Assembly (NCBI RefSeq): GCF_014287675.1
Contig: NZ_JACOPQ010000002.1
Location: 168,649 to 232,648, forward strand
DNA: 64,000 nt
Origin: Lawsonibacter faecis
Lineage (GTDB): Bacteria; Bacillota; Clostridia; Oscillospirales; Oscillospiraceae
Direction: 5' to 3'
Positions 56,608-62,627 of this stretch are shown piece by piece. The notes under the pieces are model-generated. The model searched no databases and was not told the DNA's origin. It saw only the letters and a list, made by a program, of their open reading frames with translations. Positions within the stretch are counted from its first letter, which is position 1. The number at the start of each line of letters is the position of its first letter. A program made the position numbers and the translations under genes.

Positions 56608-57261
56608 CTATACCTCCAGGCGGTAGCCCACCTTGTTCACCGCCTGGAGCTGCTTCTCCCAGCCCACCTTTTTCCGCAGGCGCTGCACGTGCAGGTCCAC
56701 CGTCTTGCTGCCGAACTGGTACTCCTCGCCCCAGACCCGCTCGTAGATGGTCTCCCGGAACAGGGCCCGGCGGGGGTTCCGGGCGAAGAGGAGCAGCAGG
56801 TCGTACTCCTTTTTGGTCAGGGCAATCTCCGCGCCGTCCCGGCGCACCTGCATGGCGCAGGGGTCAATCTCCAGGCCGCCCACCCGGAGCACCGCCTCGT
56901 TCTTCCGCCAGCGGCGCAGCACCACGTCCACCCGGGCCAGCAGCTCCACAATTTCAAAGGGCTTGACGATATAGTCCTCAGCCCCGGCCCGGAGGCCCCG
57001 CACCCGGTCGTTCACCGCGTTTTTCGCCGTGATGAAGATGACCGGCATCTCCATGGGGCGGATGTACTCCATCAGCTCAAAGCCGTCGATCTCGGGGAGC
57101 ATCACGTCCAGCAGGACGAGGTCATAGCGGCCCCGCTCCAGCAGATCGGCGGCCTCCGCCCCGTCAAAGGCGCAGGTACAGGCGTAGCCCTCCTTGGTCA
57201 GGCTGAGGCGAAGCAGATTGGAGATGGGCTTCTCGTCCTCCACAATCAGGATTCTTATCAT
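56608..57261 (-). CDS. OmpR/VanR-like response regulator
   Basis: MIRILIVEDEKPI receiver domain; winged-helix C-terminus VGYRLEV; RBS aaggaggg. Confidence 0.9.
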   Translation of the reverse strand: MIRILIVEDEKPISNLLRLSLTKEGYACTCAFDGAEAADLLERGRYDLVLLDVMLPEIDGFELMEYIRPMEMPVIFITAKNAVNDRVRGLRAGAEDYIVKPFEIVELLARVDVVLRRWRKNEAVLRVGGLEIDPCAMQVRRDGAEIALTKKEYDLLLLFARNPRRALFRETIYERVWGEEYQFGSKTVDLHVQRLRKKVGWEKQLQAVNKVGYRLEV

Positions 57262-57391
57262 GCTATCCCTCCTTACCGCCGCCCAGCATACATCGTTCCG
57301 GCATCAAAACGGCAACGGTTCTGAGGTATTGTACCGGATTTCGGCCCGCGCCGCAACTGCGCGGGCCGATGAAATGTAAGAGGTGTCATGA

Positions 57392-57428
57392 CAAAAAGAA
57401 AACCGCCCCGGAACGGGGCGGCGGGCGG
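57392..57428 (-). terminator. Terminator after the paralog-3 small protein gene
   Basis: ccgccccgttccggggcgg + ttttc on the minus strand. Confidence 0.6.
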
Positions 57429-57429
57429 G

Positions 57430-57714
57430 TCATCTGCGGCGGGGCGGGCGGCAGCCGCGGCACCCGAAGGGCGGGCGCACCACGGGCGGGAGCACCGTGG
57501 GCGGAAATACCGCCGGTATCAGCTCAATTCTCTGGGCGCTGATCTGCGGCGGAATGCTGTTGGTCATCACGCCGTTATACCAGATACGTACCAGGTCGCC
57601 GGGCTGAAACCGGTTGGCGGCGGGCGTATGGACCACCACTCTCTGCCGGGTCTCCCGGTCCAGTACCAGCAGACGCCCCCACTGCACGTCGAGCACGGCT
57701 GCATGCATTATCAT
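57430..57714 (-). CDS. Small protein of unknown function (paralog 3 of 3): conserved N-domain plus a short Pro/Cys/Arg tail
   Basis: MIMHAAVLDVQWGRLLVLDRETRQRVVVHTPAANRFQPGDLVRIWYNGVMTNSIPPQISA is about 60% identical to paralog 1; RBS ggaggtg. Its 5' region is near-identical to that of paralog 1. Confidence 0.65.
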   Translation of the reverse strand: MIMHAAVLDVQWGRLLVLDRETRQRVVVHTPAANRFQPGDLVRIWYNGVMTNSIPPQISAQRIELIPAVFPPTVLPPVVRPPFGCRGCRPPRRR

Positions 57715-58081
57715 GTCGGGCACCTCCAATCACTACAACACAGGATATGTCGGGAGAGGGCGGCGTGTGACGAATCCCGTCAGACGCCGCCGGAGGCGTG
57801 CAGAAAGACCGCCTGAGAGGGCCGCGGCCCTCTCAGGCGGTCTTTCATGATTTTTCCCCGTGCCCGGCGCTCATGCTGTGCCGGAAGTGCTCGCCAATCT
57901 GCATAAGCTCCCCGTAGGTGGAGATCTCCACGCCGGAGCGGTTGATATAGCTCTTCACCGCCGGCGGCAGAGAGGAGAAGTACCGCTCCATGGCCGGTTC
58001 CCTGTATTTCAAATTCATCACCCCGCTTAGTATGCCGCGAAACGACGGCCAGGGAGATGGTGGATGCTGGCAGCGGCGGCG

Positions 58082-58548
58082 TCAGCGGTTCAGGAGCCAG
58101 ACGCCGAAGTTGAGATAGGCCGCAAAGACCGACCACGCCAGATACGGAACCTGAAGCCAGGCGGCGGGCCTGTCGATTTTATAATAGGCCCGGATCATAA
58201 GCCCGACGGCGGCGGCCAGGGCGAGCAGCCACACAAAGGCGAAGAGGCGCAGCCCCAGAGCGAAGAACCACACGCTCCACAGGAGATGGCGAGCTGAAGG
58301 CCGTAGAGCGCAAGCGCCGCGCCGCGCCCCCTCCCGCGGGTCAGCCAGACCCGCGCCGCCCCGGCGCCCATGAGAATATACAAAATGCCCCAGACCACGG
58401 GAAAGGCCGCGGAGGGCGGCGTCAGCGGCGGCTTGGCGAGCCGCTCGTAGGCGGGCAGCCCTCTCATGACGGCAATGGCCGACAGTCCGCCGGCCGCAAG
58501 GGATATCAGGATAAACACAAGGTAGGGCATATATTTTTTCCATCTCAT
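58082..58548 (-). pseudogene. tspO: TspO/MBR family protein interrupted by a 1-nt frameshift
   Basis: N-terminal part (MRWKKYMPYLVFILISLAAGGL...ALALYGLQLAIS) is in the frame of ORF 58195..58548; C-terminal part (LWSVWFFALGL...WLQVPYLAWSVFAAYLNFGVWLLNR) is in the frame of ORF 58082..58558. The join is near 58278..58290 in a short C-run. Confidence 0.7.
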
Positions 58549-58946
58549 ACTTTATCACCCGTGGATAGTATGCCTGCCGGGAGGCGAAGTATGAACCCGA
58601 AGGTCCGCAAATCCTCCGCGTTCATTCGGCCCGGGCGGATGAGATGCAGGGCGCGGAACAAAAAAAGGGGGCCGCCCACGAAATCAACGTCTTTCGGTAA
58701 AGCGTTTTCCCGTTCATCTGTCATTCAGAACTGGGCCGCGCAGCGGCGGACCGAAGGGAACCGCGCGGCCAACGAAAGCGCGGCCCCACAGCCTGGCGCG
58801 CCCCGGGGCGGTCTCTCTTGCCCCTGCGGGACAATTCACCTCCCAGAATCCCTTTTCATAGGAGTAGCAGCCCCTGAATTTCCCTCTGAATCCTTTGGTC
58901 AGAGGTTTTTTGTCAAACGGAGGCGGCCCAGCGCGGCTGCGCCTTC

Positions 58947-61565
58947 CTATCCATCTGATTGGACGCTTTCGGCGATCTCGTCATTGCCGACGACTACAAT
59001 GTCGTCGCTGTCAAACTCACATTCCGCCAGCCCGGGGTTGATTCCCTTGTCCACCCGGTTGTATTTATTGTCCAAAGCGGTCAGGCATTCGTTTTTCCAG
59101 CTGATGCGGCCGCAGTAATCCGAAAACTTTTTAACAATGCTCGGCCCCAGCCTGTCGCTGTAGACGTCTGGCATCCGCAAAAGGAGCTGCGCCATATTCA
59201 GCAGCGCAGCATCCGATATTCCCTCACCGCTGGCCGAATGGTATTTTATTATCATATCCACGTACGTATGAACGGAATATGCAAAATAGCGGTAGGACGC
59301 CTTTTCAATCAGCTCCTCAATCTGCTTTTTTCCTATGTCAAAATAATACTGCGCATGCTGCGGCTCATTGTAAACGCCCCATACCCCCCAGGTCATATAA
59401 TTTTTGGCCTGCGCATGCTTTACATGGTAAGAGGTATTATTGCGAATCGCCGCCGCCTCGGAAAACGCATTGTTCGCCTCTTCAAAATGTTCCATGTCCC
59501 GGTGCAGGATACCCCGCTGCACCCAATAATAGCTTAGATGCTTACACACCTTCTCAATCTGCAAAAACAGGTTGAGCATCATGGAATCGTCGAGCTGCAA
59601 TTGTTTGCGCAGGCTTTTAATCTTAAGCAGCTTTTGGAATATTTCGTTTTGAACCGTCTCCTCCTGCTCGCTGAGGTTCCGGGCGAGGAAGCGCACGGCA
59701 AAGTTGATCCAGGACAAAAGCTCGTCCCGGTCCAGCTGCGTTTGCACCGACGCCCACAGAAGCCGGGAGCACCGTATGGAAATCCGGTCGTCCTGCAGGC
59801 GGATTAGGTCGGCGTAGTCCAGCGCGAATGTGTGCATGTCCACCTCCAGCCCGCAGCCGGAGAGAATATTGGAAAAAAGCGCTGCGGAAATCTCTGATAT
59901 GTCCAGAGCGCCAAACGTGCTGAGGATGAGAAAGGCCGTCTTGTTTTGGGACGCCTGCATGCGCTCAATCATGTCGGAAAAATAGCTGACAAACTGGCGC
60001 CCCTCCTGCGCCGTATAAAGCACGTCAATCAGGTCGTTCAGCTTCCGGATATAGTCGATGCACTCCTTCCGCGTGTTCCCGTAAAGCCGCAGTTTGTTCA
60101 GGTGATTTGTCTCCTCCAGCTTGTCGTAGATATTGGCCGCCTGGCGCCCGTCTTTTGTCTTTTCGGAAATATAGACCTCTTCCAGGCTCTCGTAGGAATC
60201 CAATAAATATTTCTTTGAATTGTGGTCCTGCAGACTGCCCGTACAGATAAAGATCAGGCTGCTGACGTTAGGCGGGCATTTATTGAGGATATCCTTTACA
60301 CGATTGTAGTAGTACGACATCCTCTCCGCCAGAATCGCCACCTTTGCCCCCTCGGGGAGGACCTCCAGATATTCGATAATCCGCTCCTGGTATGCGGTCG
60401 CGTTCATGGAATAGGGGAGGTTGAAGACGGAAAACTCATAGTCAAGCCGCATCAAATCCACGCCAAGCCGAATGGCCGCGCATGTTTTCCCCACATACGC
60501 CTCGCCATAAATCGCCACCAGATGATGCTTCCCTTTGGACGCGAGGGCCTTGGCCCTCCCGTCCACCTGCGGCCTTATGATATCAATATTCTTGATGAAG
60601 TCGTACGGCCGCGGCGGCGCCCCCATGTATAATTCGCTCATGTATTGATTGAGCTTGTTCTCATCCGCCGGGACCTGCTCGTCATAGAAAACCATTCCAT
60701 AATCGCGCATTTTCCGCCGCGCCTCGCCCACCGCTGCAATGCGGTCTTTGATCGTGGTCAAGAATTTCTGCGCCGTCCAGGGGATAAAGTGCATGTTCCG
60801 CTTTTCCTCAATTTTGCGCACAAGCTTCCGATTGTTGATCTTGGGCGAGACAAAGAAATAATGGGGCGGCTGGACAATTTCAACCATGGAATTGAGCTGC
60901 TGGATGATAAGCTGCAGGTCCTCCTCCTGAAATTCCGTCCCCAGAAAGACGACGTCATTGGTCAGGGAGAGATATCCGAACGTGTTCAGCGCCCAGCTGG
61001 GGATCGCTTCATAGTTTCTGTATTCGGCGGAGTCAAAGACGAAGCCCAAATCCGGTCTGTTTACAGAGCCGTGCAGCTTGTACAGCTCCAGCGAAGTCCC
61101 GTTGTGCAGCGTGGAGCATTGCTTGACATGGACAAGAGGGCGCTGCTTCGCCGGCACGTTTGAATAAATGGCCTCGACCAGATCGTCAATATTCAGTGTA
61201 AAAATATGCCGCCACGGGTAGTCCAGCAGGAACATATGAAAATCGCCGCTTAAGCAGCGGCAGCCCGAAAAGCGCTTTTGCAGGAAGCGGTCCCTCTGCT
61301 CCACTAGGTGTTCCATCTCAATGTTGTCGCAGGTTTTCTTCAAATCGGAGCGTTCGGCCCAGTAATCCTCCAAATCCTCCTTCTTAACCGTCTTGCTTTT
61401 GGCCAAGACTTCGTCAAACAGTTCTCCGGCCAACTCGCTGCCGGCCGGCAGCGGTTTGCCGTCCTGGCTCTGGATACCCTTGGAAAAGCCGGCGCCCAAA
61501 ACAAGGATTGGCGTGCGGATCGACATTCTATCAATCAAAAGCTGTTCATCGCCGACAAGATACAT
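58947..61565 (-). CDS. SIR2_2 (sirtuin-like, DHS-like NAD-binding) domain + P-loop NTPase + C-terminal helical-repeat protein; Avs5-like (SIR2-STAND) antiphage defence candidate
   Basis: SIR2_2 blocks ILVLGAGFSKG...PLP, IFTLNIDDLVE and LYKLHGS...FDSAEYRNY. Walker A GEAYVGKT. Long alpha-helical C-terminal region. Start at MYLVGDEQ after ggagga; alternatives are 61580 and 61670. The region has lower GC than its flanks. Confidence 0.7.
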   Translation of the reverse strand: MYLVGDEQLLIDRMSIRTPILVLGAGFSKGIQSQDGKPLPAGSELAGELFDEVLAKSKTVKKEDLEDYWAERSDLKKTCDNIEMEHLVEQRDRFLQKRFSGCRCLSGDFHMFLLDYPWRHIFTLNIDDLVEAIYSNVPAKQRPLVHVKQCSTLHNGTSLELYKLHGSVNRPDLGFVFDSAEYRNYEAIPSWALNTFGYLSLTNDVVFLGTEFQEEDLQLIIQQLNSMVEIVQPPHYFFVSPKINNRKLVRKIEEKRNMHFIPWTAQKFLTTIKDRIAAVGEARRKMRDYGMVFYDEQVPADENKLNQYMSELYMGAPPRPYDFIKNIDIIRPQVDGRAKALASKGKHHLVAIYGEAYVGKTCAAIRLGVDLMRLDYEFSVFNLPYSMNATAYQERIIEYLEVLPEGAKVAILAERMSYYYNRVKDILNKCPPNVSSLIFICTGSLQDHNSKKYLLDSYESLEEVYISEKTKDGRQAANIYDKLEETNHLNKLRLYGNTRKECIDYIRKLNDLIDVLYTAQEGRQFVSYFSDMIERMQASQNKTAFLILSTFGALDISEISAALFSNILSGCGLEVDMHTFALDYADLIRLQDDRISIRCSRLLWASVQTQLDRDELLSWINFAVRFLARNLSEQEETVQNEIFQKLLKIKSLRKQLQLDDSMMLNLFLQIEKVCKHLSYYWVQRGILHRDMEHFEEANNAFSEAAAIRNNTSYHVKHAQAKNYMTWGVWGVYNEPQHAQYYFDIGKKQIEELIEKASYRYFAYSVHTYVDMIIKYHSASGEGISDAALLNMAQLLLRMPDVYSDRLGPSIVKKFSDYCGRISWKNECLTALDNKYNRVDKGINPGLAECEFDSDDIVVVGNDEIAESVQSDG

Positions 61566-61859
61566 CAGAATTTCCTCCATATGTATATTTGAATACACGA
61601 ATGTGTCAAATATACATATTATACGACAGGGCAAATCATGTTGCAATCGAAATTTGGCGATTTTTCTCAAAAGGCGGAAATCAATTCACTGGTTATTTGT
61701 GCGTTATTCCGGCAGTACAAGGAAAGCTCTGCTCCCAAAAACAGAAAGCCCTTGCAATCACTAGCTTTTCTAGCAATTGCAAGGGCTCCAAGAGTGTAAC
61801 ACACAAACAAAATAGATGCCACGCAGTCTTGCCCAACCGTTTGAATAACTAAAAAATAA

Positions 61860-62347
61860 AGGGAGACGGTTTAACAATATTTTCAAGCTTAGAGAATACT
61901 GCCTCAATATATGGGAACAGTTCCCTGTTGTCAAATTGTAGTCGTTCCTCTACTGCATCTGCCTGGCAAACTAGCTTTGCACATCCTTAGCATTGCTTGG
62001 GTAGTCTGCTTCACCAAGCTTAATTTTATAATGACAACTTCGCTTTAACTCCTCCATCTCCGAATACTGGAAGCATCCGTAGTTAATGTTGCATGGGTAT
62101 TCCTTTTCAAACTGGACGTCCATATAAGTGGTCAAGCCAACCATAGGATGTACTTCGCACTGGCCAACAGTTCATCCACCGCCGCCCTGATCCATCTGAG
62201 GTTACCGGTTGGAGAGGGGATTCCCTTCTCGCAAAGCATATCCACTGCCTTGCCCAAGCTGGCTCCAACGAGGTAATAAGCAAAGATACTGCGGACGGTT
62301 TCCCCCTTTTCGTCACCCACCAAAATGTATCCATAGGGTATCCTCAT
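61860..62347 (-). pseudogene. Remnant of a large serine recombinase (recombinase-domain fragment)
   Basis: ORF 62132..62347 (-) VRSIFAYYLVGASLGKAVDMLCEKGIPSPTGNLRWIRAAVDELLASAKYI matches the Recombinase domain of large serine recombinases (IFxLYxxGxSxxxIAxxLNxxGIPxPxGxxWxxxxVxxIL). No intact resolvase catalytic domain. Low GC. Confidence 0.45.
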
Positions 62348-62484
62348 ATTTACCGCCTCACTTCCTTAAACATAAATAAAAGCAGGTTTGAATGAGAACC
62401 GACTCACTCAAATCTGCTTAGCAATTCTTCTGATATAGTGATGATAACTAATTTAGAACCCACACTTTAATGCAAATTCAACAC

Positions 62485-62530
62485 TAAATAGCAAAATCTG
62501 CGTATAACGATAGTTATACGCAGATTTTGT
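62485..62530 (-). terminator. Terminator downstream of tRNA-Ser
   Basis: aaaatctgcgtataac-tatc-gttatacgcagatttt perfect stem + U-run. Confidence 0.8.
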
Positions 62531-62536
62531 CTGCTT

Positions 62537-62627
62537 TGGCGGAGAGAGAGGGATTCGAACCCTCGGTACGCTATCAACGTACACACGATTTCCAATCGTG
62601 CGCCTTCGTCCACTCAGCCATCTCTCC
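62537..62627 (-). tRNA. tRNA-Ser (anticodon GGA), class II with a long variable arm, encoded CCA
   Basis: Minus strand GGAGAGAUGGCUGAGUGGACGAAGGCGCACGAUUGGAAAUCGUG...GGUUCGAAUCCCUCUCUCUCCGCCA; acceptor stem GGAGAGA/UCUCUCC. Confidence 0.85.

What the first reader, a model, noticed from the sequence alone, without database searches (positions are those of the whole stretch)
58947..61565. Single-gene SIR2-STAND (Avs5-like) antiphage defence candidate
The 872-aa protein has an N-terminal SIR2_2-type domain (GAGFS...PLP, TLNIDDLVE, KLHGS...FDSAEYRNY). In defence systems such as Thoeris ThsA, DSR and Avs5, this domain acts as an NADase effector. It is followed by a Walker-A P-loop (GEAYVGKT) and a long helical, TPR-like sensor region, which is the STAND/AVAST layout. 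The gene is on a low-GC islet next to a tRNA and a decayed recombinase, a typical defence-island context. No partner genes are present, so it would be a single-gene system.
Basis: partly seen in the sequence, partly recalled or inferred. Interest (0 to 1): 0.75.

Follow-up and report, generated by a model that had tools for sequence, protein, structure and literature searches.

The report
Single-gene SIR2–STAND NADase defence candidate
This gut-bacterium gene encodes a three-part protein (NAD-destroying SIR2 head, ATP-binding STAND switch, helical-repeat sensor) that most likely acts as a one-gene anti-phage suicide switch like Avs5, but it belongs to a separate, uncharacterised sequence family that current defence-system profiles do not recognise.

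Summary
An intact 872-aa ORF lies at 58947-61565 (-), and every quoted motif is present. It sits on a ~3.6-kb low-GC islet that abuts tRNA-Ser(GGA) and a serine-recombinase remnant. The protein is WP_186918435.1 of Lawsonibacter faecis, annotated only as "SIR2 family protein".

- The SIR2_2 domain is significant, and its catalytic Asn125 and His165 align with ThsA N112 and H152.
- The middle domain is a full STAND NTPase, with Walker A GxxxxGK[T/S], a Walker B acidic residue (Glu414), a helical domain and a winged helix.
- The C-terminus is TPR-like.
- The AlphaFold model (pLDDT 88) finds the Avs5 cryo-EM structures and human SAMD9 as its best full-length matches.

The Avs5 HMMs (PADLOC, NCBIfam) match only the SIR2 part, at 43 bits against a cut-off of 1000. 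The NTPase groups with Pfam nSTAND5, whereas the EfAvs5 paper assigns that protein's NTPase to nSTAND3. This subclade has also lost the canonical sensor-1 arginine.

The family has about 430 clusters at 50% identity, mostly in gut Bacillota. It has no conserved partner gene, is usually lower in GC than its flanks, and is sometimes found on prophages.

Verdict: a plausible Avs5-like abortive-infection NADase from an uncharacterised sister family. It is a new variant of a known kind and of moderate interest.

The parts
58947..61565 (-). SIR2-STAND-TPR gene, 872 aa (WP_186918435.1, Lawsonibacter faecis)
   Evidence: ORF. Exact match to the NCBI record. Homologues. AlphaFold model with pLDDT 88 and pTM 0.80.
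60696..61565 (-). SIR2_2 NADase effector domain (aa 1-~290). Contains the Rossmann motif G24-A-G26-F-S and catalytic N125, D127 and H165.
59736..60560 (-). STAND NTPase module (aa ~336-610), made of a nucleotide-binding domain, a helical domain and a winged helix. Walker A is G354-EAYV-G359-K360-T361. Walker B is VAILA-E414-R415. The sensor-1 strand is LIFICT442-G-S444, with no Arg.
59046..59735 (-). C-terminal all-helical TPR-like putative sensor (aa ~611-840). It has a conserved patch: S678-Y-x-W681-x-Q683-x-G685, H717..K721-N722 and S764-x-H766.
58950..59045 (-). Poorly conserved, low-confidence C-terminal tail (aa 841-872)
   Evidence: pLDDT below 50 for residues 842-872. Lowest conservation of any segment.
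61566..61646 (-). Putative 5' region. It has a sigma-70-like promoter (TTGCAA-17-TATAAT, 61646..61618) and an inverted repeat (61579-61592 / 61606-61619) that overlaps the -10 box. A GGAGG ribosome-binding site lies 8 nt before the ATG.
   Evidence: These are consensus matches only.
61971..62347 (-). Remnant of a large serine recombinase. It has part of the Recombinase domain only and no catalytic resolvase domain.
   Evidence: PF07508 E=7.6e-8, profile positions 2-55 of 102. Most of it is replaced by unrelated sequence in sister strains.
62537..62627 (-). tRNA-Ser(GGA). Its 3' end is the right-hand junction of the islet.
   Evidence: ARAGORN. Rfam tRNA, 56.8 bits. Strain-to-strain similarity breaks at 62534.

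Best explanation
The gene encodes a single-polypeptide, NLR-like (antiviral STAND) immune sensor with a SIR2 NADase effector.

Proposed mechanism:
1. At rest the protein is an autoinhibited monomer. A nucleotide is bound in the STAND pocket by Walker A K360/T361 and Walker B E414.
2. During phage infection the C-terminal TPR-like solenoid binds a phage-derived protein or another infection cue, probably through its conserved W681-x-Q683 / H717 / H766 patch.
3. Binding releases autoinhibition. The NOD and SIR2 domains then drive oligomerisation; in Avs5 this takes the form of filaments.
4. Oligomerisation assembles active SIR2 sites (N125, D127, H165). These hydrolyse NAD+ and deplete the pool, which stops phage replication through growth arrest or abortive infection.

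Shown here: the three-domain anatomy, the conservation of the catalytic and nucleotide-binding residues, the absence of any partner gene, the mobile and horizontally acquired context, and the closest structural relatives.

Inferred by analogy with EfAvs5, PaAvs5, ThsA and DSR2: NADase activity, the trigger, oligomerisation, and the anti-phage outcome.
For: SIR2 effector:
- Pfam SIR2_2 E=2.7e-13.
- The family profile hits the ThsA, KomC and SIR2-HerA-type NADases. N125 aligns with ThsA N112 and H165 with ThsA H152.
- G24, G26 and N125 are invariant, and H165 is kept in 89 of 96 representatives down to 17% identity.

STAND module:
- K360 is kept in 96 of 96 and the Walker B acidic residue in 95 of 96.
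- The model shows beta1 / P-loop / beta3-Walker B / beta4 / beta5, then a helical domain and a winged helix.
- hhalign gives 100% probability over 791 columns to bona fide nSTAND5 proteins.

Whole protein:
- The top Foldseek PDB hits are EfAvs5 9jap_A (E=6e-23) and PaAvs5 9nc9. These alignments span ~850-910 columns, about the full length of the query.
- The single-acidic Walker B 'E-R' matches PaAvs5-1 IIFIE410-R411, and the Walker A position (354-361 here, 357-364 there) is nearly the same.

Published mechanism of relatives:
- Avs5 NADase is activated by filamentation or a phage protein, and Walker A/B are required.

Context:
- No conserved neighbour in 25 loci, and gene GC is below flank GC in 24 of 25.
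- Relatives sit next to integrases, IS elements, TIR/ThsB genes and a Schlafen-like gene, and on prophage or IMG/VR contigs.
- The gene is intact in all 12 copies from sister strains and metagenomes that were checked. Five of these differ from the window, giving dN/dS 0.05-0.5. The adjacent recombinase is decaying over the same comparison.
Against: - There is no experimental evidence for this family.
- The Avs5 HMMs do not recognise the STAND or sensor regions. The mechanistic analogy therefore rests on fold and architecture.
- This protein and most of its subclade (members at least ~27% identical) lack the sensor-1 arginine. That residue is 'TTR' in EfAvs5 and 'T-S-R' in more distant members. 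Nucleotide handling may therefore differ.
- The sensor is about as conserved as the NTPase domain. This fits recognition of a conserved fold, but it also fits a non-phage ligand.
- In this genome the islet holds no other defence gene and is fixed in every sampled strain. That is weaker 'defence island' evidence than usual.
- Full-length relatives are absent from the sequenced phage and plasmid collections.
Confidence: 0.7

Rival explanations
1. It is a SIR2-STAND conflict protein aimed at something other than phage. It might act against plasmids or conjugative elements. It might be an addiction or exclusion module of the mobile islet that carried it. It might sense a host stress signal or a small molecule rather than a phage protein. 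The biochemistry (NAD+ depletion) would be the same, but the trigger and biological role would differ.
For: - The sensor carries an unusually well conserved patch: W681 in 87 of 96, Q683 in 84 of 96 and H766 in 81 of 96 representatives. The sensor as a whole is about as conserved as the NTPase.
- The gene travels with integrases, transposases and IS elements.
- It is fixed in the species.
Against: - Every characterised SIR2_2-STAND protein (EfAvs5, PaAvs5) is anti-phage and is triggered by phage proteins.
- Several relatives sit at prophage ends and beside Thoeris-like TIR genes, which is typical placement for anti-phage cargo.
- Conserved Avs sensors are known to recognise conserved phage folds.
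Confidence: 0.15
2. The SIR2 domain is not an NAD+ glycohydrolase. It would instead be an NAD-dependent protein or nucleic-acid modifying enzyme (deacylase or ADP-ribosyltransferase). The protein would then be a STAND-regulated signalling or regulatory enzyme rather than an NAD-depleting effector.
For: - SIR2-fold enzymes include deacylases and ADP-ribosyltransferases.
- Catalytic His165 is retained, as in classical sirtuins.
- Activity cannot be read from sequence.
Against: - The domain belongs to SIR2_2 (PF13289). All of its nearest solved relatives are defence NADases: ThsA, KomC, DSR2, Avs5 and SIR2-HerA.
- No hit to classical sirtuins was returned.
- In published examples the fusion of SIR2_2 to a STAND sensor is an NADase effector.
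Confidence: 0.08
3. The gene is a decaying passenger of a dead mobile element and no longer functions.
For: - The islet's recombinase is a fragment.
- No att repeat survives.
- The neighbouring TspO gene carries a 4-bp frameshift in this strain.
- The sensor-1 Arg is missing.
- Close relatives are split in Pseudoflavonifractor phocaeensis and in L141.
Against: - The ORF is intact and the same length in all 12 strain and metagenome copies examined. dN/dS is 0.05-0.5, and no substitution falls at a catalytic or P-loop residue.
- All catalytic residues are kept.
- A promoter-like site and a strong ribosome-binding site are present.
- The loss of the sensor-1 Arg is shared by most of a large subclade in which the ORFs remain intact. 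It is a lineage trait, not a private lesion.
Confidence: 0.07

Closest known systems
Avs5 / AVAST type 5 (SIR2-STAND; EfAvs5 PDB 9jap, PaAvs5 PDB 9nc9)
   Same: - Same three-module order, SIR2 then NOD (nucleotide-binding, helical and winged-helix domains) then helical sensor, in one polypeptide of ~770-870 aa.
- Walker A sits at nearly the same residue number. Walker B is the single-acidic 'E-R' form, as in PaAvs5-1.
- It is a single-gene system.
   Different: - Only 13-15% identity.
- The Avs5 HMMs (PADLOC PDLC02170, NCBIfam NF041814) match only the SIR2 part. The NCBIfam score is 42.9 bits against a cut-off of 1000, and no family member does better.
- The NOD groups with Pfam nSTAND5. EfAvs5's NOD is assigned to nSTAND3 by its authors.
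- The sensor-1 'TTR' Arg is absent (S444).
- The catalytic His is kept where EfAvs5 has Asn180.
- Hosts are gut Bacillota and some Bacteroidota, whereas the characterised Avs5 proteins come from Proteobacteria.
- Global TM-score is only 0.27. The solved structures are active filaments and the model is a monomer.
Human SAMD9/SAMD9L and the bacterial 'SAMD9-like STAND' group (Avs5, Avs6, Avs9)
   Same: - It shares a SIR2-like domain, a P-loop NTPase and TPR-like repeats in the same order.
- The literature already groups the Avs5 sensor with SAMD9.
   Different: - No SAM domain, no AlbA_2 nuclease effector and no OB fold. The model has no strands after residue 597.
- Here the SIR2 domain keeps its catalytic residues and is the presumed effector. 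In SAMD9 and Avs9 the effector is the AlbA_2 nuclease.
Thoeris ThsA (SIR2-SLOG NADase)
   Same: It is the closest sequence relative of the SIR2 domain. The profile gives E=2.8e-12 to 6lhx, and catalytic N112 and H152 align with N125 and H165. PADLOC ThsA scores E=6.9e-11.
   Different: - No SLOG/STALD cyclic-ADPR-binding domain.
- No ThsB TIR partner in the window.
- The regulatory module is a STAND NTPase plus TPR repeats.
DSR2 (defence-associated sirtuin 2)
   Same: It is a single-gene SIR2 NADase with a long helical sensor that binds a phage protein. PADLOC Dsr2 scores E=6.4e-10 on the SIR2 part, and Foldseek hits are around 1e-7.
   Different: - No P-loop NTPase was detected in DSR2's matched region, and DSR2 proteins are ~1,000-1,200 aa.
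- NCBIfam Dsr2 scores 29.2 bits against a cut-off of 1400.
Pfam nSTAND_NTPase5 (PF25199) SIR2-STAND proteins of conflict systems (nSTAND nomenclature; the eLife 2021 paper PMC8195603 was listed but not read)
   Same: - hhalign of the family against SIR2-nSTAND5 proteins gives probability 100% and E=6.8e-62 over 791 columns, including the C-terminal W-x-Q motif.
- Family members P0061, P0196 and P0200 pass the PF25199 cut-off.
   Different: - The window protein itself does not reach any STAND Pfam threshold. Its best hit is nSTAND3 at E=0.045.
- Its subclade has replaced the invariant sensor-1 Arg (R455 in P0064).
- I found no experimental study of this Pfam family in the paper searches.

Membership tests
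SIR2_2 (PF13289) defence-type sirtuin domain | Significant match to the family profile above the gathering threshold | tested here: met
   50.7 bits against a cut-off of 24.5, residues 120-260. All 50 aligned family members match.
SIR2_2 (PF13289) defence-type sirtuin domain | NAD-binding GxG motif and catalytic Asn and His equivalent to ThsA N112 and H152 | tested here: met
   G24-A-G26, N125 and H165 align with the ThsA residues. The N112A mutant entry 8bto has Ala in that column. N125 is kept in 96 of 96 and H165 in 89 of 96 representatives.
SIR2_2 (PF13289) defence-type sirtuin domain | NAD+ glycohydrolase activity | not testable with these tools
   Needs an enzyme assay.
STAND NTPase (NLR-like / Avs superfamily) | P-loop nucleotide-binding domain with Walker A GxxxxGK[ST] and a Walker B acidic residue | tested here: met
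   G354..G359-K360-T361 and hhhh-E414. K360 is kept in 96 of 96 and the acidic residue in 95 of 96.
STAND NTPase (NLR-like / Avs superfamily) | Nucleotide-binding domain followed by a helical domain and a winged helix (NOD module) | tested here: met
   [not shown]
STAND NTPase (NLR-like / Avs superfamily) | Sensor-1 arginine after beta4 ('TT/SR' motif) | tested here: not met
   The window has C441-T442-G443-S444. hhalign aligns the invariant R455 of nSTAND5 protein P0064 with S444. Arg is present at this column in 52 of 96 representatives, nearly all of them distant ones.
STAND NTPase (NLR-like / Avs superfamily) | Match to a curated STAND Pfam family | tested here: inconclusive
   The window protein scores only nSTAND3 E=0.045, which is below threshold. 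Relatives pass nSTAND_NTPase5 (P0061 43.4, P0196 50.9 and P0200 46.8 bits against a cut-off of 34). The profile-profile link has 100% probability.
Avs5 (AVAST type 5) | SIR2 - STAND - helical sensor in one polypeptide, with no partner gene | tested here: met
Avs5 (AVAST type 5) | Full-length match to the Avs5 family profiles (NCBIfam NF041814 equivalog, PADLOC PDLC02170) | tested here: not met
   NCBIfam gives 42.9 bits against a cut-off of 1000. Both profiles match only residues ~21-169, about positions 26-168 of models 763 and 771 long. None of 20 relatives tested matched Avs5 outside the SIR2 domain.
Avs5 (AVAST type 5) | NOD of the nSTAND3 type, as reported for EfAvs5 | tested here: inconclusive
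   Family members hit nSTAND5 (8 of 50, best 3.8e-11) slightly more often and more strongly than nSTAND3 (6 of 50, best 2e-5). Only nSTAND5 passes its cut-off. The EfAvs5 assignment is taken from PMC11897194.
Avs5 (AVAST type 5) | Closest structural neighbour is Avs5 | tested here: met
   [not shown]
Avs5 (AVAST type 5) | Phage-triggered NAD+ depletion and anti-phage protection that depend on the SIR2 and Walker motifs | not testable with these tools
   Needs experiments. This is established only for EfAvs5 and PaAvs5.
Thoeris (ThsA/ThsB) | SLOG/STALD ligand-binding domain in ThsA and an adjacent TIR-domain ThsB | tested here: not met
   The ThsA profiles match only the SIR2 part, positions 95-229 of 478. 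No TIR ORF lies in the flanks of the window.
DSR2 | Full-length match to the Dsr2 profile | tested here: not met
   NCBIfam Dsr2 gives 29.2 bits against a cut-off of 1400, on the SIR2 part only. A P-loop NTPase is present here.
SAMD9 / Avs9 | AlbA_2 nuclease effector (plus an OB fold in SAMD9) | tested here: not met
   No AlbA_2 hit in Pfam. The model has no beta structure after residue 597.
tRNA-integrated genomic islet | Abuts a tRNA 3' end, has deviant GC and carries a recombinase | tested here: met
   The strain-variable segment starts exactly at the tRNA 3' end.
tRNA-integrated genomic islet | Flanking direct repeat (att) and an empty site in related genomes | tested here: not met
   No repeat of the tRNA 3' end lies in 57000-62450. 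All 8 distinct same-species places carry the islet. More distant relatives have no synteny.

The most novel reading that the evidence does not exclude
This would be the founding, testable member of a separate antiviral STAND family: SIR2 effector, nSTAND5-type NOD and a TPR sensor with a conserved W-x-Q / H / H pocket. The family is common in gut Bacillota and invisible to PADLOC and NCBIfam defence models. In this subclade the canonical sensor-1 arginine has been lost. Activation would then rely on nucleotide binding without canonical gamma-phosphate sensing, or on a substitute residue such as H448, K451 or R598. The trigger would differ from those known for Avs5 (T7 gp1.7, jumbo-phage JADA).
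Probability: 0.4. Interest if true: 0.55.

Novelty: new variant of a known kind. Interest (0 to 1): 0.42.

Why it matters
SIR2-STAND proteins are bacterial counterparts of NLR and SAMD9-type immune sensors. So far only proteobacterial Avs5 proteins have been characterised.

This family is large: about 430 clusters at 50% identity with E<=1e-30, found in Oscillospiraceae, Lachnospiraceae, Selenomonadales, Christensenella and Muribaculaceae. NCBI annotates it only as "SIR2 family protein", and the PADLOC Avs5 model does not detect it. Defence-system censuses of the human gut microbiome therefore probably undercount it.

It offers a natural comparison with Avs5. The fold is the same, but the NOD belongs to a different subfamily, the sensor-1 arginine is missing and the sensor is different. 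That comparison could show which features of STAND activation are essential. It could also reveal a new phage trigger in gut Firmicutes.

It is not a new kind of system.

Tried and rejected
1. Empty-site test. I fetched 80 metagenome loci through the neighbouring AIM24 protein. None shared synteny or the tRNA, so the result is uninformative. I then looked up contigs that encode the identical response regulator. All 8 distinct places carry the islet, so no empty site was found.
2. att repeats. The repeat finder and a 16-mer scan with up to 2 mismatches, using the tRNA 3' end as query, found nothing.
3. A shared hotspot with Flavonifractor sp. L019. It shares only a paralogous-looking HK/RR pair ~5 kb away, in a different arrangement and next to a different tRNA. 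Rejected.
4. A conserved partner gene. All-against-all BLASTP of flanking ORFs in 25 loci found no family present in more than 2 loci. Rejected.
5. Phage or plasmid carriage in reference collections. There was no tblastn hit in 50,697 phage records. Plasmids gave only SIR2-domain hits. BFVD gave only generic AAA+ hits.
6. Alternative effector fusions among odd-length hits (P0197, P0144 and others). These look like fragments or chimeric gene calls.
7. The afdb50 fold library was unavailable. I therefore could not compare the model with monomeric predicted Avs5 models.
8. I could not obtain Avs5 sequences for a direct profile-profile comparison. The relationship to Avs5 rests on HMM scans and fold search.
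9. An Rfam scan of 57-64 kb found only the tRNA.
10. The longer TTG start at 61670 was rejected in favour of ATG 61565. The ATG has the ribosome-binding site, matches the NCBI record and fits the homologue N-termini.
Full report

Yes. One search lists one long ORF on the minus strand, 58947..61670 (907 aa from a TTG).

That start is the right one, for three reasons:
- The sequence reads ...ATATGGAGGAAATTCTGATGTATCTT... on the coding strand, so GGAGG lies 8 nt before the ATG.
- The identical 872-aa protein is NCBI WP_186918435.1, "SIR2 family protein [Lawsonibacter faecis]".
- The homologues begin at the same place.

All the quoted motifs (GAGFS...PLP, TLNIDDLVE, KLHGS...FDSAEYRNY, GEAYVGKT) are in the translation.

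The context claims hold as well:
- GC drops from 0.62-0.72 to 0.40-0.54 between about 58.9 and 62.7 kb.
- tRNA-Ser(GGA) is at 62537-62627 (-).
- The 71-aa ORF at 62132-62347 (-) matches only the first half of Pfam Recombinase (PF07508, E=7.6e-8). It has no resolvase domain, so it is a serine-recombinase remnant.

**2. Anatomy of the protein**

*(a) SIR2 domain, residues 1 to ~290.*
- Pfam SIR2_2 scores E=2.7e-13.
- A profile built from 50 family members hits the solved ThsA, KomC and related defence NADases, with E down to 2.8e-12.
- That alignment places N125 (FTLNIDDLVE) on ThsA N112. The N112A mutant entry 8bto has Ala in exactly that column. H165 (KLHGS) falls on ThsA H152.
- Across 96 full-length representatives, down to 17% identity, G24, G26 and N125 are invariant. 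H165 is kept in 89. Five representatives have Asn there, the residue EfAvs5 has at its position 180.

*(b) STAND NTPase, residues ~336-610.*
- Walker A is G354-x4-G359-K360-T/S361, and K360 is kept in 96 of 96.
- Walker B is hhhh-E414, acidic in 95 of 96.
- The AlphaFold2 model (pLDDT 88.1, pTM 0.80) shows a nucleotide-binding domain whose five beta-strands alternate with helices. A helical domain and a winged helix with a beta-hairpin follow it.
- The window protein alone reaches no STAND Pfam threshold; its best hit is nSTAND3 at E=0.045. Relatives do pass nSTAND_NTPase5, PF25199 (P0061 43.4 bits, P0196 50.9, P0200 46.8, cut-off 34).
- hhalign links the family to bona fide SIR2-nSTAND5 proteins with 100% probability over 791 columns.

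*(c) C-terminal domain, residues ~611-840.*
- It consists of thirteen helices and no strands.
- It is about as conserved as the NTPase.
- It carries a sharply conserved patch: S678-Y-x-W681-x-Q683-x-G685, H717...N722 and S764-x-H766.
- Residues 842-872 are low-confidence and unconserved.

The N-domain is inside SIR2_2, and the NTPase fold is complete.

**3. One real deviation**

STAND proteins normally have a sensor-1 arginine after strand beta4. It is 'TTR' R453 in EfAvs5, and it is the invariant R455 in the nSTAND5 relatives.

hhalign aligns that Arg with S444 of the window protein, in the strand ...LIFICTGS.... Among the 96 representatives, Arg occupies this column in 52. Nearly all of those are distant members carrying 'T-S-R'. 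Most of the subclade at least ~27% identical to the window protein has lost it, while H448 stays conserved.

The ORFs of that subclade remain intact, so this is a lineage trait and not decay. It does mean nucleotide handling may differ from the canonical pattern. EfAvs5 itself binds ATP without hydrolysing it. PaAvs5-1 has the same single-acidic Walker B, 'IIFIE410-R411', as the window's 'VAILAE414-R415'.

**4. Relatives and context**

The family is sizeable.
- One search gave 67 proteins.
- An exhaustive profile search of 1.84 billion representatives gave 430 with E<=1e-30. Most of the top 150 are ~800-875 aa and match from end to end; the rest are shorter partial sequences.
- Among GTDB species representatives it occurs in Oscillospiraceae, Flavonifractor, Oscillibacter valericigenes, Lachnospiraceae, Selenomonas, Propionispira and Christensenella. 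It occurs at ~24% identity in Muribaculaceae and Porphyromonadaceae.

There is no partner gene, and the context is that of a mobile gene.
- All-against-all comparison of flanking ORFs in 25 loci found no family shared by more than two loci.
- The gene's GC is below that of its flanks in 24 of 25 loci, often by 10-25 points.
- Neighbours include tyrosine and serine recombinases, IS elements and a Schlafen/AlbA_2 gene. In L008 the gene sits at the accessory end of a prophage, followed by DUF1883-TIR and ThsB-TIR genes.
- Six full-length relatives lie on IMG/VR viral contigs. One of them sits beside a CI repressor, an integrase and a transposase.
- A tRNA gene lies within ~1 kb in the window and in L010, L019 and L022.
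- No full-length relative is present in the reference phage or plasmid collections.

**5. This locus within its species**

The same arrangement recurs at 98-99.6% identity in Pseudoflavonifractor sp. BIOML-A6 and in many gut metagenomes. The order is AIM24 - tRNA-Ser - recombinase remnant - SIR2-STAND - TspO - DUF3221 - RR - HK - VanY.

All 8 distinct places that encode the identical response regulator carry the gene.

The twelve copies examined are all intact and 872 codons long. Five of them differ from the window copy and give dN/dS of 0.05-0.5. Their substitutions avoid all catalytic and P-loop residues.

The integration module, by contrast, is decaying. Window 62167-62533, which covers most of the recombinase fragment, is replaced by an unrelated 240 bp in some strains. 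The break falls exactly at the tRNA 3' end. No att repeat survives.

The islet therefore looks like an old, immobilised insertion whose cargo gene is being maintained.

**6. Comparison with known systems**

At the sequence level the protein is not Avs5.
- PADLOC Avs5 (E=7.8e-13) and NCBIfam Avs5 (42.9 bits, cut-off 1000) cover only residues ~21-169.
- None of 20 relatives scanned matched Avs5 beyond the SIR2 domain, and several matched nothing at all.
- EfAvs5's NOD is assigned to nSTAND3. This family scores better on nSTAND5.

ThsA, DSR2, SIR2-HerA and SAMD9/Avs9 each lack, or require, a module that does not fit; the membership table gives the details.

Recent literature describes Avs5 as spanning three clades, all from Proteobacteria-type hosts. 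It also describes at least 90 structurally distinct defence-associated STAND families. I could not determine whether this family is one of those 90.

**7. Most likely mechanism** (confidence about 0.7)

I propose an Avs5-like, single-polypeptide immune sensor.
- *Shown here:* domain anatomy, residue conservation, the lack of partners, the mobile context and the structural neighbours.
- *Inferred from EfAvs5 and PaAvs5 and from ThsA and DSR2:* the TPR-like domain binds a phage protein. Nucleotide-dependent oligomerisation of the NOD and SIR2 domains then activates the SIR2 site. NAD+ is hydrolysed, and infection aborts.

The rivals are a non-phage trigger or role (0.15), a non-NADase SIR2 chemistry (0.08), and a dead passenger gene (0.07).

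**8. Verdict**

"Avs5-like" should be read as "built like Avs5 and probably working like it", not "an Avs5".

It is a new variant of a known kind. It belongs to an uncharacterised SIR2-nSTAND5-TPR family of gut anaerobes with a degenerate sensor-1 motif and a conserved sensor pocket. The PADLOC and NCBIfam defence models tested here do not detect the family.

A specialist would find it useful rather than surprising, so I score interest at 0.42.

Noticed in passing
window 58082-58558 (-), lesion near 58287: The TspO/MBR gene just downstream of the SIR2-STAND gene is split over two reading frames. Compared with the intact 150-aa gene of sister strains (L155:13035-13487), the window has a 4-bp deletion (CTCA). 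In this strain the gene is a frameshifted pseudogene, or the sequence has an error.
   Followed up: yes
window 62167-62533, compared with L155:9160-9399 and L158:4426-4665: The 367 bp immediately 3' of tRNA-Ser hold most of the recombinase remnant and the tRNA's hairpin. In some strains of the same species they are replaced by an unrelated 240-bp segment. Similarity breaks exactly at the tRNA 3' end.
   Followed up: partly
window 61579-61592 / 61606-61619 and 61618-61646: A perfect 14-nt inverted repeat (ATATGTATATTTGA / TCAAATATACATAT) overlaps the -10 box of a promoter-like site just upstream of the gene. It could be an operator, but no regulator gene is adjacent.
   Followed up: no
L154:4134-4150 (joins window 58659 to window 22281): One JGI metagenome contig joins the region 290 bp downstream of the gene's stop codon to a point 36 kb away in the window. 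This is either a structural variant or an assembly chimera.
   Followed up: no
L008:10864-12980: A 30%-identical homologue lies at the accessory end of a P2-like prophage, after the lysis genes, a Dam methylase and an HTH gene. It is followed directly by DUF1883-TIR and ThsB-TIR genes and a 211-aa ORF. That looks like a Thoeris-like system next door, so the site may be a prophage defence hotspot.
   Followed up: no
L141:7998-10469; also Pseudoflavonifractor phocaeensis WP_256285590/91: Some copies of the family are interrupted. L141 is split into 212-aa and 607-aa pieces beside a prophage CI repressor, an integrase and a transposase. A copy more than 90% identical is split into 463-aa and 418-aa pieces in P. 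phocaeensis.
   Followed up: partly
L010:10681-10768, L019:7784-7868, L022:7642-7726: In three other high-GC Oscillospiraceae-type genomes, family members at 31-57% identity each sit within ~300 bp of a different tRNA-Leu gene. This suggests repeated tRNA-targeted insertion of small islets that carry this gene.
   Followed up: partly
cluster member P0214 (KAB4860933.1): A 133-aa fragment more than 90% identical to this protein is deposited as Bacteroides thetaiotaomicron on a 1.1-kb contig. It is probably contamination of that assembly.
   Followed up: no
L001:4842-7346 and L001:13727-18160; L003:983-2422: Neighbours of homologues include an SMC_N/AAA_15-type ATPase, a 1,477-aa FRG-domain protein and a Schlafen/AlbA_2-HATPase_c_4 protein. 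All are domain types often seen in defence islands. None was examined further.
   Followed up: no
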